Assembly: GCA_030265305.1 (NCBI GenBank)
Contig: JASAOG010000080.1
Location: 1,746,630-1,810,629 of the forward strand
Length of the DNA: 64,000 nt
Origin: Biomphalaria pfeifferi
Taxonomy: Eukaryota
Direction: 5' to 3'
Shown: in pieces, positions 26,002 to 41,092 of the stretch
Numbering within the stretch: position 1 is the stretch's first letter
Layout: every line of letters begins with the position of its first letter
The notes under the pieces: generated by a model
Database searches by the model: none
Told to the model about the DNA's origin: nothing
The model's input: only the letters and a program-made list of their open reading frames with translations
Program-made: the position numbers and the translations under genes

Positions 26002-29000
26002 CTGTTGAGATTTGGTTAGATTCAAACTATAATTAAAACAGACTGATCAGACTGCTACCTAAGAGGATATTATATCCTGGTTTTAGACCATAGACTTTAC
26101 ATTATTTGAGGATGTTCTGGAGTCTATCTAGTGATAATGAGTAGCTGACTGTCACACATGATCATACACTAAGGCCTCAGGGACAGTCTCCAACGTAAAG
26201 CAAAAATATTAGAGATTTAAGAAAAAAATTCAGGTCTAATATTTTTAGCATTGGGTTTTTATTTGCTAGCTTCCTGAAAACAGCAATAACATGGAGACCA
26301 AAAGAAGGAAATAGGAAACAAGGTCATTTCCATAATACATGGAACCAGAAATTTTTAAACAACTGACACCAGATGGGATGAGGTTGAGATGATGACCAAT
26401 CTAGGTGGAGATGGTTTTCCATCCTGTTTTCCAAACAGCACAGGATAATCTAAGTAGTTTGCACAGGACAATCTAAGTAATCTAAGTAAGTTTCATCTAT
26501 TTTTCTTTCACATCGCTTTACACACCAAACAGTGAAAGTTAACAGCTATTTTTTTTTTTTAAAGTTTAGCAGAAGTTACTTTGAAAATTTTGTATGTATG
26601 TCAAGCATAGCTGTTCAAAAGTTGTATTGTCATGAATCTAATGTTAACGTAATCTTTTCCAAGTACCACAAGATCAAGGACTAATATATATCTGATTCTT
26701 GTAGCTATTTTATTATGCAATGTTTTTTTTGACAGTTAGATAAACCTATAATATAAATATGTTTTAAAATATCTTATCCAATGACTTACTGTCTTGGGAG
26801 GCACCATCCCATCACTGTTGGGAAACATTAATGCATTGGCTTTTGCTTTCATTTCTTCATCCTGCAGAGACAGAACATAGGCAGATAATTTCAGGCTTCA
26901 AAATAATTCATATAAAACATGTAAAAATATTTTCTACTTTCATAATTTACCTTCAACCAAGGATGGTTAAGAATTTCTGCAAATGTGATGCGCTTCTTTG
27001 GATCAATCACCATCATCTTTTTGATAAGGTCAATGGCTGAAGAAAATAATTATTCCATCAAATACATATAGTCAAACAATGACGCAAAAAACAATAGATT
27101 ATTTATCTTAAGAAACAAAAAATACATAAAATCCAAAAGCTTGAGCAATTCTTTTTGGTTTAAGTCAAATTTAAAATGAAAATTGTATAGAATGTTTAGA
27201 CTGTCAAATTTGTTTTGAGCTTTACATTACAAATAAATAGAAGAAGAAAAAGACTTTTATTTTTATAATAATGTGCTTCTTGTATTAAAGCCTCAAGTAG
27301 GTCCTTTGCAATTATAAGTGAAGTATTTGTACCTGTATCTGAGACATCCTTCCAATACTGTTTAGGGAAAGAAAAATGGCCTCCAACTATTTGCTTAGGC
27401 AGCTCCATGTCTGTACGTTCATCAGAGAAAGGGGGATAACCAGACAGCCTGGTATAATAACAAAGTAGATTGTGCAATATTTATTTTCTATTTTTATTTT
27501 TAATTTCTAATTACTTCTCATTATTACAAATCAATATTTCATAAGCTTAAGGTTATGACTATACTAATATTACCATTAATTTGGAATTATGCAAGCTTAC
27601 ATAATAAATAAGATGACCCCAAGGCTCCAACAATCTATAGCTTTAGTGTATGTACCAGTGCCAGCAGATTTTAAAATCTCAGGTGCTAGATAAGTTGGCG
27701 TGCCACAAAATGTTTTCATCATTGATCCGGCATCCACAAATTTAGACAAGCCAAAATCTGTAACCTTCAGAATGAAGGAAACAAAATATTACTCAGAGTT
27801 ACACTTTCAATTACAAGTAGGTGAGTGATTTCATTAATATGAATAACGTTAGAATATAAATCACCAAAGATTAATCAGGGCTCTAGTATTTTTGGTGATT
27901 CAATTACTTGGACAATTAAGCACTGTCTGAGTTTGAAGATTTTAGAATTTAGTAATATTATATACATAGCTTCATGGACATAGCTAAGTAACAGCATCTT
28001 ATTTTTCTCTCTCACACCATTATTTGGTATCTTAAAAATCAAATACGTCATGTATGATTGAATGAACACAAAAATATATTTTTAAAAAAACATTAAATAC
28101 AAAAATTCAGTAAAGTCGTGACAAGGATAATTGAGATGATTTAAATTGAAGAAATATATATCTGAGGCATGGGCGTAGCTGGGGGGGGGGGGGGGGGGGG
28201 GGGGGGGTCCTTGGGGTTTAAACCCCACCCCCCAAATTGAAATCCCCCCCGTGGGGGGGGGGGGGGGAGATCGGAATTCAGTAACTCATTATTTGCTTTG
28301 ATTTTGTTTATTTTGGGTGACATTTTAATACTATAACATCACTTTCCCCAGCGCAGCCAAGGGGTTTTGAGTTTAAAAACCCCTACCAGGGGGGTTTGAG
28401 TTTAAAACCCTCTACTAGGGTTTTTTGCAGTTAAATCCCTCTCTTCTAAAAACAAAACAAAAAAATGCAAATGACGATCCCCAAATTCTAAGAGCACAGT
28501 TAAGGAAGATTTTGATTTTAAAACCCCCTATTCAATATAAATAAAGCAAATTACACACTCAAAATATTCTATGAGCGTAGCCAAAGGGTTTTAAGTTTAA
28601 CCCCCCCCCCCCCTCTTCAGTAGGGTTTGAAGCTAAAAAATACCTCTTCAATATAAAAAAAAGCAAATTACGCACTCAAAATGTTATGAGCATAGGTAAA
28701 TGGGTTTTGACTCAGTTTTGAGTTGAAACCCCCTCCAGTGGAGTTTGAAGCTAAAAAAATAACTCTTTAATATAAAAAAAAGCAAATTACGCACTCAAAA
28801 TGCTATGAGAGTTGCCAAACGGGGTTTTGAGTTTAAATCCCCTTTCATAAGGGTTTGATGCTAAAAAAATACCGCTTTAATAAAAAAACAAAACAAATTA
28901 CACACTAAAATTATTTTAGCGTAGCCAAGCCAATTGGGGGTTTTGAATTTAAACCCCTCTCTTACAGATGGCTTTTCTTAAAAGTTTAAAACCCCTCCAG

Positions 29001-40039: not shown

Positions 40040-41092
40040 GATCTAGTCACCCGATCCAAATAACTGACTCCTAAAATCCGTCTTAGCCATCTTTGTTGAG
40101 CCACATTTAGTGTTTTTCAATTTCGGCAGATGACTATTCACTGCACTTTATTAATTGAGCCCCGCCAATGGTAGAAATGTGTAACCTCTCTTAAATACGC
40201 TCTTGGAATTAAGTGACTGTAGTTTGCATTAGATTTTGTATCGAAAAGTGAAGTTTTTAATGTTGTTGTTTTTTAATTCAAAACCCCATTTAGCTACGGT
40301 CATAGAATTTAGTAACTGTAGTTTGCTTTAGAATAATATTGAAGATAGAGGTTTTCCACCTCAAAACGCTCTGTAGGGGGATTTTAAACTCAAAACCATC
40401 TGGAGGGATTTTAAACCGCTGAAGGGGGGTTTAAACTCAAAACTGAGTCAAAACTCCTTTTGGCAACACTCATAGCATTTTGAGTGCGTAATTTGCTTTT
40501 TTCTTACATTGAAGATGTATTTTTTAGCGTCAAATCCCGCTTTGCGTTTTTTTATACCAGGTATTGAAGAGGCATTTTTAGCTTCAAACCCTATTGAAGA
40601 GGGGGTTGGGGTTAACTCAAAACCCCTTTGGCTACGCTCATAGAATTTTGAGTGTGTAATTTTCTTTTTTTATATTGAAGAGGGGGGTTTATCGTAAATT
40701 TTGGAGGGGGTTTAAAAATAAAAAATCTTCCTTAACTGTGCTGGTGAAATTTGGGGGATTGTCGTTTGCATTTTTTTGCTTTGTGTTATAGAAAAGGGGC
40801 ATTTAACTTCGAAAACCCCTGGTAGGGGGTTTTAAACTCACCCCCCCCCCGGTAGGGGGTTTTAAACTCAAACCCCCCAGGTAGGGGATTTTAAACTCAA
40901 AACCCCTGGTAGGGGGTTTAAACTCAAAACCTCCTTTACTGTGCTAAGACAATTGATAGTTTAGTATTAAAATCTCACCTAAAAAAAAAACAAAAGCAAA
41001 GCAAAAAATCAGTCACTTAATTCCGATCCCCCCCCCCCCCCTGGAATTTCATTTCGGGGGGGGGGGGTGAACCCCTGGCTACGCTTATGCGT
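40040..41092. repeat. Inverted-repeat arm B (reverse complement of 28166-29385)
   Basis: CCCGATCCAAATAACTGACTCCTAAAATCCGTCTTAGCCATCTTTG...TTTCGGCAGATGACTATTCACTGCACTTTATTAAT... then the same ~135-bp units (AAACTCAAAACCCC..GGTAGGGGGTTTTAAACTC) and outer end ...GATCCCCCCCCCCCCCCTGGAATTTCATTTCGGGGGGGGGGG..GGCTACGCTTATGC. Starts ~140 bp upstream of the CHK2 ATG. Confidence 0.8.

What the first reader, a model, noticed from the sequence alone, without database searches (positions are those of the whole stretch)
28166..41092. A 1.1-1.2 kb inverted-repeat pair, each arm a tandem satellite array, brackets the promoter and exons 1-11 of CHK2
Arm A (28166-29385) and arm B (40040-41092) are reverse complements over their whole length. 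The match runs from the G/C-homopolymer-capped outer ends (GCGTAGC.GGGGG..GATCGGAATT.AGT.ACT) through ~6 tandem ~135-bp units to the inner ends (..CATCTGCCGAAATTGAAAAACA..GATCGGG). Arm A lies in CHK2 intron 11. Arm B ends only ~140 bp upstream of the CHK2 start codon. Long IRs made of tandem subrepeats resemble foldback-type elements, but here the 10.6-kb interior is host gene sequence. The structure could promote hairpin or cruciform formation. Recombination between the arms would invert the 5' two-thirds of CHK2. It may also influence CHK2 transcription. I cannot tell whether it is two independently inserted copies of a non-autonomous element (no clear TSDs found) or an inverted segmental duplication.
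Basis: seen in the sequence. Interest (0 to 1): 0.75.

Follow-up and report, generated by a model that had tools for sequence, protein, structure and literature searches.

The report
Two transposon copies flanking snail CHK2
The "inverted repeat" around the front part of the snail CHK2 gene is two separately inserted, differently aged copies of one non-coding cut-and-paste transposon that carries an internal tandem array, so it is ordinary transposon litter and not a built-in structure of the gene.

Summary
Window 28168-29385 (+) and 40044-41089 (-) are homologous in inverted orientation (blastn E 1e-114). They bracket CHK2 exons 1-11 of a Biomphalaria snail, probably B. pfeifferi. The match is loose: 84% identity in aligned columns, 60% with gaps, longest exact run 43 bp. 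The internal period is about 110-120 bp, not 135.

The interpretation changes. Three B. glabrata assemblies lack a 1,706-bp block (28168-29873) in intron 11. They show a clean empty site, ATCTAAGG, which is duplicated on both sides of the block in the window. The block ends in short inverted termini (CATGGGCGTAGC... / ...GCTACATAGCCCATG). Arm A is therefore the 5' two-thirds of a complete non-autonomous transposon with terminal inverted repeats (TIRs) and an 8-bp target-site duplication (TSD), most likely of the hAT superfamily.

Arm B is an older copy that lacks its 3' end. It sits inside a decayed hAT transposase remnant and is shared with B. glabrata, where its array length varies from 1.6 to 3.0 kb. 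Each tandem unit repeats the element's own terminal motif. The Physella CHK2 locus has neither copy.

This is not a segmental duplication, not a foldback element and not an assembly artefact, and no conserved function is indicated. Interest is low.

The parts
28160..28167 (.). Left copy of the 8-bp target-site duplication (ATCTGAGG; one mismatch to the right copy)
   Evidence: The B. glabrata empty site reads ...GAAATATAT-ATCTAAGG-GGATTCAAG... in L001, L002 and L003.
28168..29873 (+). Complete 1,706-bp non-autonomous TIR transposon. Arm A of the finding is its 5' 1.2 kb. It is absent from B. glabrata.
   Evidence: Window-versus-B. glabrata blastn skips exactly this block, with an 8-bp overlap of the flanks.
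28168..28184 (+). 5' terminal inverted repeat CATGGGCGTAGCTGGGG, followed by a 27-nt G run (28181-28207)
   Evidence: The G run was reported by TRF.
28357..28442 (+). Array of a 29-bp GGGGTTTTGAGTTTAAAACCCC-type palindromic sub-unit
   Evidence: TRF: period 29, 3 copies.
28527..28964 (+). About four tandem units of roughly 111-119 bp. Each carries a copy of the terminal motif (TATGAGCGTAGCCAAAGGGGTTTTGAGTTTAAACCCC).
   Evidence: Self-blast offsets of 116 and 235 bp. Anchor spacing of 117/119/111 bp. Motif listing.
28995..29248 (+). Two more divergent related units (offset 144 bp)
   Evidence: 28995-29105 vs 29139-29248, 73%.
29314..29514 (+). Stretch that reads, with one stop and one frameshift, [54 protein letters not shown]. 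By my own knowledge it looks like the conserved C-terminal motif of a LINE ORF2, but no tool confirmed this. Arm B shares only its first 54 nt.
   Evidence: Translations. Pfam found nothing. The representative-library search found nothing.
29855..29873 (+). 3' terminal inverted repeat (CCTGGCTACATAGCCCATG; reverse complement CATGGGCTATGTAGCCAGG)
29874..29881 (.). Right copy of the 8-bp target-site duplication (ATCTAAGG)
40044..41089 (-). Arm B: an older copy of the same family that lacks the 3' end and has no 3' TIR. It ends 140 bp upstream of the CHK2 ATG. Its 5' end is CATAAGCGTAGCCAGGG (CATGGGCGTAGCCAGGGG in B. glabrata).
   Evidence: Orthologous copies of 1,635, 2,960 and 1,666 bp in L001, L002 and L003.
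41090..41700 (-). Decayed, internally deleted hAT-type transposase remnant (DUF4371 part and the part just before the hAT dimerisation domain). Its protein homology stops exactly at arm B's 5' end.
   Evidence: homologous-protein hits P0124 (PF14291) and P0125 (PF05699). tblastn places them at 41687-41442 and 41443-41056. Relatives are named 'zinc finger MYM-type protein 1-like'.
42491..42507 (-). Related terminus CAGTGGCTTAGCTAGGG followed by G/C runs. It is possibly the 5' TIR of the decayed hAT element.
   Evidence: Pattern search: 4 hits in the window against 0.05 expected. Sequence.
25915..39903 (-). CHK2 coding region (16 coding exons). Exons 1-11 lie between the two copies.

Best explanation
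The two arms are two independent insertions, made at different times and in opposite orientation, of one family of non-autonomous cut-and-paste DNA transposons in a Biomphalaria genome.

A full element (28168-29873) has short imperfect terminal inverted repeats beginning CATGGGCGTAGC. It makes an 8-bp target-site duplication, has no coding capacity and carries a one-sided internal array of units of about 117 bp. Each unit repeats the element's own terminal motif plus a GGGG...CCCC palindrome.

Shown: arm A's element entered CHK2 intron 11 after this lineage split from B. glabrata. Arm B is older, since both species share it. It lacks the 3' end, so it can no longer move, and it lies inside a dead hAT transposase-bearing element in the GOSR1-CHK2 intergenic region. 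Its array has since expanded and contracted like a minisatellite.

Inferred: the family belongs to the hAT superfamily and is moved in trans by a hAT transposase that recognises the CA(G/T)(G/T)GGC(G/T)TAGC termini. The internal array arose by tandem duplication of the 5' terminal, transposase-binding module. The inverted-repeat geometry around CHK2 exons 1-11 is incidental and has no function.
For: (1) Empty site. Window 34570-29874 and 28167-23277 align to adjacent B. glabrata sequence with an 8-bp overlap in three assemblies. B. glabrata reads ATAT-ATCTAAGG-GGATTC. The window reads ATAT-ATCTGAGG-[CATGGGCGTAGC...GCTACATAGCCCATG]-ATCTAAGG-GGATTC.

(2) The termini are inverted repeats. The terminus pattern occurs 4 times in the window against 0.05 expected.

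(3) Arm B is at the orthologous place in all three B. glabrata assemblies, with the same 5' junction gatgcacg|CATGGGCGTAGCC and the same 3' break point. Its length is 1,053 bp's provisional boundaries in the window, and 1,635, 2,960 and 1,666 bp in B. glabrata.

(4) The arms differ more from each other (84% in aligned columns) than most orthologous non-coding sequence differs between the two species (mostly 88-94%). They are therefore not copies of one another.

(5) Internal units carry the terminal motif.

(6) A hAT transposase remnant abuts arm B, and its homology stops at arm B's terminus.

(7) The Physella acuta CHK2 locus has no copy, and its GOSR1-CHK2 spacer is only 2.1 kb.
Against: The superfamily assignment is indirect. 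No autonomous element with the same termini was found, and P-type elements also make 8-bp duplications. The third base of the TIR (T) departs from the usual hAT YARNG start. Genome-wide copy number, other full copies and other TSDs could not be examined; metagenome scans found nothing. A precise excision or deletion in the B. glabrata lineage, rather than an insertion in this lineage, cannot be formally excluded, but it would not leave an unduplicated 8-mer. The window's species is inferred from only three diagnostic residues of CHK2. The B. pfeifferi locus itself could not be fetched.
Confidence: 0.85

Rival explanations
1. Inverted segmental duplication: one arm was copied from the other, or both from a local template, by a rearrangement at the CHK2 locus.
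For: Two homologous 1-kb blocks lie in inverted orientation only 10 kb apart.
Against: Arm A's block has its own TIRs and an 8-bp TSD, and three B. glabrata genomes show a clean empty site. Arm B predates the species split while arm A does not. Arm B lacks the 3' 490 bp that arm A's element has. The arms are 16% diverged in aligned columns, with many unit-sized indels.
Confidence: 0.02
2. One giant foldback-type element whose long terminal arms are made of tandem repeats and which has captured the 5' part of CHK2.
For: The arms contain tandem sub-repeats and face each other, which is superficially like foldback or Tetris elements (PMC4079207).
Against: B. glabrata has arm B and the whole 10-kb interior without arm A. 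The TSD flanks the 1.7-kb unit, not the 12.9-kb span. Within one element the array is on one side only and in direct orientation.
Confidence: 0.01
3. Assembly artefact: collapsed or chimeric repeats were placed in the CHK2 locus.
For: Long G/C homopolymers (27 G) and tandem arrays are error-prone in assemblies.
Against: The two arms are clearly different sequences with unique flanks collinear with three independent B. glabrata assemblies. The insertion junctions are exact and carry a TSD.
Confidence: 0.03
4. The inverted pair is functional for CHK2 in this species. If transcription starts upstream of arm B, the arms could pair in the pre-mRNA, giving double-stranded RNA, small RNAs or back-splicing. 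Alternatively they could mediate an inversion polymorphism that switches CHK2 off.
For: The geometry exists. Arm B lies 140 bp from the ATG and arm A in intron 11, in opposite orientation.
Against: The pair is absent in B. glabrata, and both copies are absent in Physella, while CHK2 protein is nearly identical. Identity is low and the longest exact run is 43 bp. Arm B and the 140 bp before the ATG are no better conserved between species (about 89%) than the introns. No transcript data were available.
Confidence: 0.05
5. A rolling-circle (Helitron/Helentron-derived) tandem-repeat carrier of the kind described in bivalves (pearl/DTC84-like).
For: Molluscan short non-autonomous elements with a core of tandem repeats are known (PMC3879986).
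Against: DTC84-type elements have a putative AA target duplication and a microsatellite module. This element has an 8-bp TSD and CATGGGC... TIRs. No sequence similarity could be tested.
Confidence: 0.03

Closest known systems
Non-autonomous hAT-superfamily DNA transposons (MITE-like deletion derivatives)
   Same: 8-bp target-site duplication. Short imperfect TIRs of 12-19 bp. No coding capacity. Related termini in the same window (CAGTGGC...) fit the hAT YARNG start. One copy is nested in a hAT (ZMYM1-like, DUF4371 plus hAT-dimerisation) transposase remnant.
   Different: At 1.7 kb it is larger than a typical MITE. The TIR starts CATGG, not CAG/TAG. No autonomous partner with matching termini was found. 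About half of the element is an internal tandem array.
Tandem-repeat-containing MITEs of molluscs (DTC84 of Donax trunculus, pearl of Crassostrea; PMC3879986)
   Same: A molluscan non-autonomous element built as a cassette of flanks around a short array of core repeats. Each repeat holds a palindrome. Array copy number varies between copies and alleles.
   Different: DTC84 has a putative AA target duplication, a microsatellite module and core repeats unrelated to its ends. Here the TSD is 8 bp and each unit repeats the terminal motif.
Foldback-like elements with repeats in the arms (Tetris / FB of Drosophila; PMC4079207)
   Same: Terminal sequences are reiterated as tandem repeats inside the element, and such arrays can vary in length and seed satellite-like DNA.
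   Different: Foldback elements have long inverted arms made of the repeats on both sides. Here a single element has its array on the 5' side only, in direct orientation, and short TIRs. The large 'inverted repeat' is made of two separate elements.

Membership tests
hAT superfamily (non-autonomous member) | 8-bp target-site duplication | tested here: met
   ATCTGAGG / ATCTAAGG flank 28168-29873. The unduplicated ATCTAAGG is present at the empty site in three B. glabrata assemblies.
hAT superfamily (non-autonomous member) | Short terminal inverted repeats (about 10-25 bp), usually starting YARNG | tested here: inconclusive
   TIRs are present: CATGGGC-GTAGC vs CATGGGCTATGTAGC. The third base is T, not a purine. 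The related ends at 42507 and 5021 (CAGTGGC...) do fit YARNG.
hAT superfamily (non-autonomous member) | An autonomous partner with the same termini that encodes a hAT transposase (DDE/RNase-H fold plus C-terminal hAT dimerisation domain) | tested here: inconclusive
   A decayed hAT transposase remnant lies next to arm B, about 400 bp inside a similar terminus. The closest intact relatives' contigs (L004-L007) contain no such termini. A whole-genome search was not possible.
Foldback (FB-type) elements | Both long arms belong to one mobile unit bounded by a single TSD | tested here: not met
   Arm B and the interior exist without arm A in B. glabrata. The TSD bounds the 1.7-kb unit alone.
Foldback (FB-type) elements | Long TIRs composed of tandem sub-repeats on both ends of the element | tested here: not met
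   The 3' 490 bp of the element (29386-29873) has no similarity to the array or to anything else in the window. The units are in direct orientation on one side only.
Inverted segmental duplication | Both copies arise in one event and have the same age; no TSD or TIR of their own | tested here: not met
   The two arms differ in presence/absence across species. Arm A's element has its own TSD and TIRs.
Helitron/Helentron-derived tandem-repeat carriers (pearl/DTC84-like) | No 8-bp TSD; insertion at a fixed dinucleotide (AA/AT/TT); no CATGGGC-type TIRs | tested here: not met
   An 8-bp TSD and TIRs were found. The DTC84 description is from PMC3879986.
SINE with LINE-derived tail | Pol III head (tRNA/5S/7SL), a 3' end shared with a partner LINE, variable-length TSD, no TIRs | tested here: not met
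   There is no tRNA or Rfam match in the window. The LINE-like stretch is internal and does not reach the 3' end. TIRs and a fixed 8-bp TSD are present.

The most novel reading that the evidence does not exclude
The reiterated terminal motif in every internal unit of about 117 bp could make each unit an alternative transposase-binding end. The family would then generate array expansions, truncated mobile derivatives and satellite seeds by alternative-end transposition. In this species the young intronic copy and the old promoter-proximal copy could additionally pair, as DNA or as pre-mRNA, and give a lineage-specific modulation or an inversion polymorphism of the checkpoint kinase CHK2.
Probability: 0.06. 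Interest if true: 0.55.

Novelty: new member of a known kind. Interest (0 to 1): 0.2.

Why it matters
The finding matters mainly as a clean-up. A striking 13-kb "inverted repeat around a checkpoint-kinase gene" dissolves into routine transposon history once the orthologous locus of a sister species is examined.

Three minor points remain of value:
- It gives a well-bounded full copy (TIRs, TSD, empty site) of a tandem-repeat-carrying DNA transposon in Biomphalaria, the snail vector of Schistosoma mansoni. This is usable as a repeat-library seed and as a presence/absence marker between the B. pfeifferi-like and B. glabrata lineages.
- It is an example in which the internal array is built from copies of the element's own terminus and behaves as a length-polymorphic minisatellite (1.0-3.0 kb among four haplotypes). 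This bears on how transposons seed satellite DNA.
- More than half of the GOSR1-CHK2 divergent intergenic region in Biomphalaria is transposon-derived, and CHK2 protein changes very little (three residue differences from the B. glabrata sequence).

Tried and rejected
- tRNA scan and Rfam gathering search of the whole window found nothing, so there is no SINE-type head or known RNA in the arms.
- Pfam scan of the translated hAT-remnant frames and of the LINE-like peptide found no hit. The remnant was identified only through the search for homologous proteins.
- The LINE-ORF2 reading of 29314-29514 could not be confirmed. The exhaustive representative search with the 43-aa open stretch gave 0 hits, and tblastn against the window and the loci found only the arms themselves. 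It stays an own-knowledge resemblance.
- I looked for an autonomous partner. Contigs of the closest intact hAT relatives (L004-L007) contain no CATGGGCGTAGC-type terminus.
- Two exact-word scans of JGI metagenome contigs, for a 29-mer of the conserved tail and a 26-mer of the unit, gave 0 matches.
- Literature search for the terminal 12-mers gave only unrelated primer hits.
- A look-up of the B. pfeifferi CHK2 protein for its contig found nothing on record, so the window's species could not be confirmed at DNA level.
- DNA folding of the G/C-run head was no better than shuffles (z = -0.09), so there is no evidence for a special local structure.
- The first tblastn printout was swamped because the protein file held all hits. 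It was redone with one query.
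Full report
**What is in the sequence**

The window is AT-rich eukaryotic DNA. Concatenated minus-strand ORF pieces between 25.9 and 39.9 kb find serine/threonine kinase Chk2 of Biomphalaria glabrata as best hit (E 7e-240), followed by other gastropods. 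Mapping that protein back gives the exon positions: exon 1 with the ATG at 39903, exon 11 at 30324-30271, exon 12 at 27773-27600 and the last exon ending at 25915. At the three residues where the window differs from B. glabrata proteins (…GTGTYTK…, …VSDTAID…, …KTPSGKR…), it agrees with the B. pfeifferi protein in the same 90% cluster. The window therefore comes from a Biomphalaria of the B. pfeifferi type. This could not be checked at DNA level.

**Check of the observation**

The two arms are real and far beyond chance. blastn of arm A against the window gives minus-strand matches 28851-29381/40537-40049 (E 1e-114) and 28214-28667/41075-40541 (E 4e-76). Ungapped blocks of 159 and 151 nt are 92% complementary.

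Its quality is modest, however: 797 matches, 147 mismatches and 373 gap columns. That is 84% identity in aligned columns and 60% overall, and the longest exact run is 43 bp.

The internal repeats have a period of about 110-120 bp. Self-blast offsets are 116 and 235 bp, and anchor spacings are 117/119/111 bp. There is also a 29-bp palindromic sub-unit (TRF) and one 144-bp pair. The period is not about 135 bp. No other copy of the array occurs in the 64 kb.

**The decisive comparison**

I fetched the CHK2 locus with 10-kb flanks from three B. glabrata assemblies: L001 (GCA_025434165.1), L002 (GCA_947242115.1) and L003 (GCA_025434175.2). The window aligns to them collinearly, mostly at about 88-94% identity and lower across arm B's tandem array.

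In all three, the alignment jumps from window 29874 directly to window 28167, with the B. glabrata coordinates overlapping by 8 bp. The junctions read as follows:
- B. glabrata: ...GAAGAAATATAT-ATCTAAGG-GGATTCAAGAC...
- Window: ...GAAGAAATATAT-ATCTGAGG-[CATGGGCGTAGCTGGGG ... CCTGGCTACATAGCCCATG]-ATCTAAGG-GGATTCAAAAC...

So 28168-29873 (1,706 bp) is a discrete insertion with an 8-bp target-site duplication. Its two ends are inverted repeats of each other, CATGGGC-GTAGC vs CATGGGCTATGTAGC. Arm A of the finding is the 5' 1.2 kb of this unit. The remaining 490 bp (29386-29873) match nothing else in the window or the loci.

**Arm B**

Arm B is present at the orthologous position in all three B. glabrata assemblies. 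It has the same 5' junction (gatgcacg|CATGGGCGTAGCCAGGGG...; the window copy has mutated to CATAAGCG...) and the same 3' limit of homology to arm A's element (...GATCGGGTGACTA).

It therefore predates the species split. It was already missing the 3' end and the 3' TIR at that time, and it cannot be the donor of arm A's element.

Its length was measured as 1,053 bp in the window's provisional boundaries, and as 1,635, 2,960 and 1,666 bp in L001, L002 and L003. The difference comes from gain and loss of whole units, so the array behaves as a minisatellite.

**What arm B sits in**

Immediately outside arm B's 5' end, minus-strand frames between 41.09 and 41.7 kb can be stitched into a peptide that hits two proteins. 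One carries DUF4371 (PF14291) and the other the hAT dimerisation domain (PF05699).

tblastn places these hits at 41687-41442 and 41443-41056. Homology to the second protein stops at its residue ~210 (…NDVIDAR|), which is exactly arm B's terminus. Its relatives are annotated 'zinc finger MYM-type protein 1-like' or 'HAT C-terminal dimerisation domain-containing'.

About 400 bp beyond the start of the coding remnant, at 42491-42507, there is a terminus CAGTGGCTTAGCTAGGG followed by G/C runs. Another such terminus, CAGTGGCGTAGCTATGG, lies at 5005-5021. The pattern CAKKGGCKTAGCYRGGG occurs 4 times in the window against 0.05 expected.

Arm B thus appears to have inserted into an older hAT element whose ends resemble those of the arm family. 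A later deletion then probably removed arm B's 3' end together with the rest of that hAT element. No dimerisation-domain coding is found downstream.

**Internal architecture**

Every unit of about 117 bp contains (C)TATGAGCGTAGCCAAAGGGGTTTTGAGTTTAAACCCC. This is about 80% identical to the element's own 5' terminus as preserved in B. glabrata, CATGGGCGTAGCCAGGGGGGGGTTGAGGTTCAAACCCC. The core GCGTAGCCARRGG occurs six times in the window, all inside the arms, against 0.5 expected.

The array is therefore a tandem reiteration of the terminal module, presumably the transposase-binding part, in direct orientation on the 5' side only. That the module binds transposase is an inference.

The stretch 29314-29514 reads like the conserved C-terminal motif of many LINE ORF2 proteins (...[20 protein letters not shown]...RMRFAGHV...). 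That judgement rests on my own knowledge. Pfam and the exhaustive representative search gave nothing.

**Mechanism and classification**

An 8-bp TSD, short TIRs, no ORF, and nesting next to hAT remnants with similar termini point to a non-autonomous hAT-superfamily element mobilised in trans. I put the hAT assignment at about 0.65. P-type elements also give 8-bp duplications, the TIR begins CATGG rather than YARNG, and no autonomous partner with these ends was found.

That the 'inverted repeat' is two independent insertions of one family I regard as essentially shown.

**Rivals**

- Segmental duplication and a giant foldback element are refuted by the presence of arm B plus the interior without arm A, and by the TSD bounding only the 1.7-kb unit.
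- Misassembly is unlikely given distinct arm sequences, collinear unique flanks and exact junctions.
- A functional inverted pair (cruciform, NAHR inversion, dsRNA, back-splicing) is not supported. The pair is lineage-specific. The Physella acuta locus has no copy at all and a GOSR1-CHK2 spacer of only 2.1 kb. Arm identity is low with at most 43-bp exact runs. Arm B and the 140 bp before the ATG are no better conserved between species (about 89%) than introns. Transcript or population data would be needed to exclude this rival formally.

**Comparison with what is known**

Tandem-repeat-containing non-autonomous elements are well described in molluscs (DTC84/pearl; PMC3879986) and in insects (Tetris; PMC4079207). 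The present family shares the 'cassette around a variable array with palindromes' design.

It differs from DTC84 in its TSD (8 bp vs AA) and in that its units are copies of its own end. It differs from foldback elements in having a one-sided direct array and short TIRs.

It is best filed as a new (or at least here newly delimited) member of a known kind. It may already be in Repbase or Dfam, which I could not query.

**Verdict**

The structural and regulatory speculations are unsupported. The finding is ordinary transposon biology and of low interest.

Noticed in passing
window 6925-7135 (+), 14596-14810 (-), 33780-34008 (+), 51035-51265 (-): Four copies (72-83% identical) of a tRNA-derived SINE of about 280 bp, with recognisable A/B-box-like head (GGTGACTGAGTGGTTAAGCGCTT...GGGTTCGAATCTC). 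One copy lies inside a CHK2 intron. ARAGORN does not call them as tRNAs.
   Followed up: partly
window 41090-42507 (-): Decayed, internally deleted hAT (ZMYM1-like; DUF4371 plus pre-dimerisation region) transposase remnant in the GOSR1-CHK2 intergenic region. It is 82% identical at DNA level over 387 bp to an ENA metagenome contig (L007).
   Followed up: yes
window 5005-5021 (-) and following about 100 bp: A further terminus of the same style (CAGTGGCGTAGCTATGG ... C-run ... GAAATGA), suggesting a wider group of elements with CA(G/T)(G/T)GGC(G/T)TAGC ends in this genome.
   Followed up: no
L001 8189-9823, L002 6880-9839, L003 8167-9832 (B. glabrata): The orthologous arm-B copy is 1,635, 2,960 and 1,666 bp long in three B. 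glabrata assemblies, against about 1,050 bp in the window. The internal array is strongly length-polymorphic between haplotypes.
   Followed up: partly
window 36298-37896 vs L001 12172-12442; L001 13585-16018 vs window 35107-35109: Other kilobase-scale indels between the window and B. glabrata inside CHK2 introns. The CHK2 coding span also differs by 3 kb between B. glabrata assemblies (10.5 vs 13.3-13.6 kb). The locus is generally rich in presence/absence variants.
   Followed up: no
window 36080-36295: (AT)n microsatellite of about 108 repeats in a CHK2 intron. It produces most of the 'inverted repeat' rows in the repeat finder.
   Followed up: no
window 44984-45641 and 45644-45670: Tandem duplication of a unit of about 290 bp (76% identity, offset about 370 bp), immediately followed by a C-run of about 27 nt. 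The C-run is the only other match to arm A's G-run.
   Followed up: no
window 42510-42691: Short tandem repeat of about 82 bp (76% identity) directly outside the CAGTGGC... terminus at 42507.
   Followed up: no
window ~43.9-52 kb (+) and L008: GOSR1 lies head-to-head with CHK2, and the arrangement is conserved in B. glabrata and Physella acuta. The spacer is about 4-4.6 kb in Biomphalaria, more than half of it transposon-derived, against 2.1 kb in Physella.
   Followed up: partly
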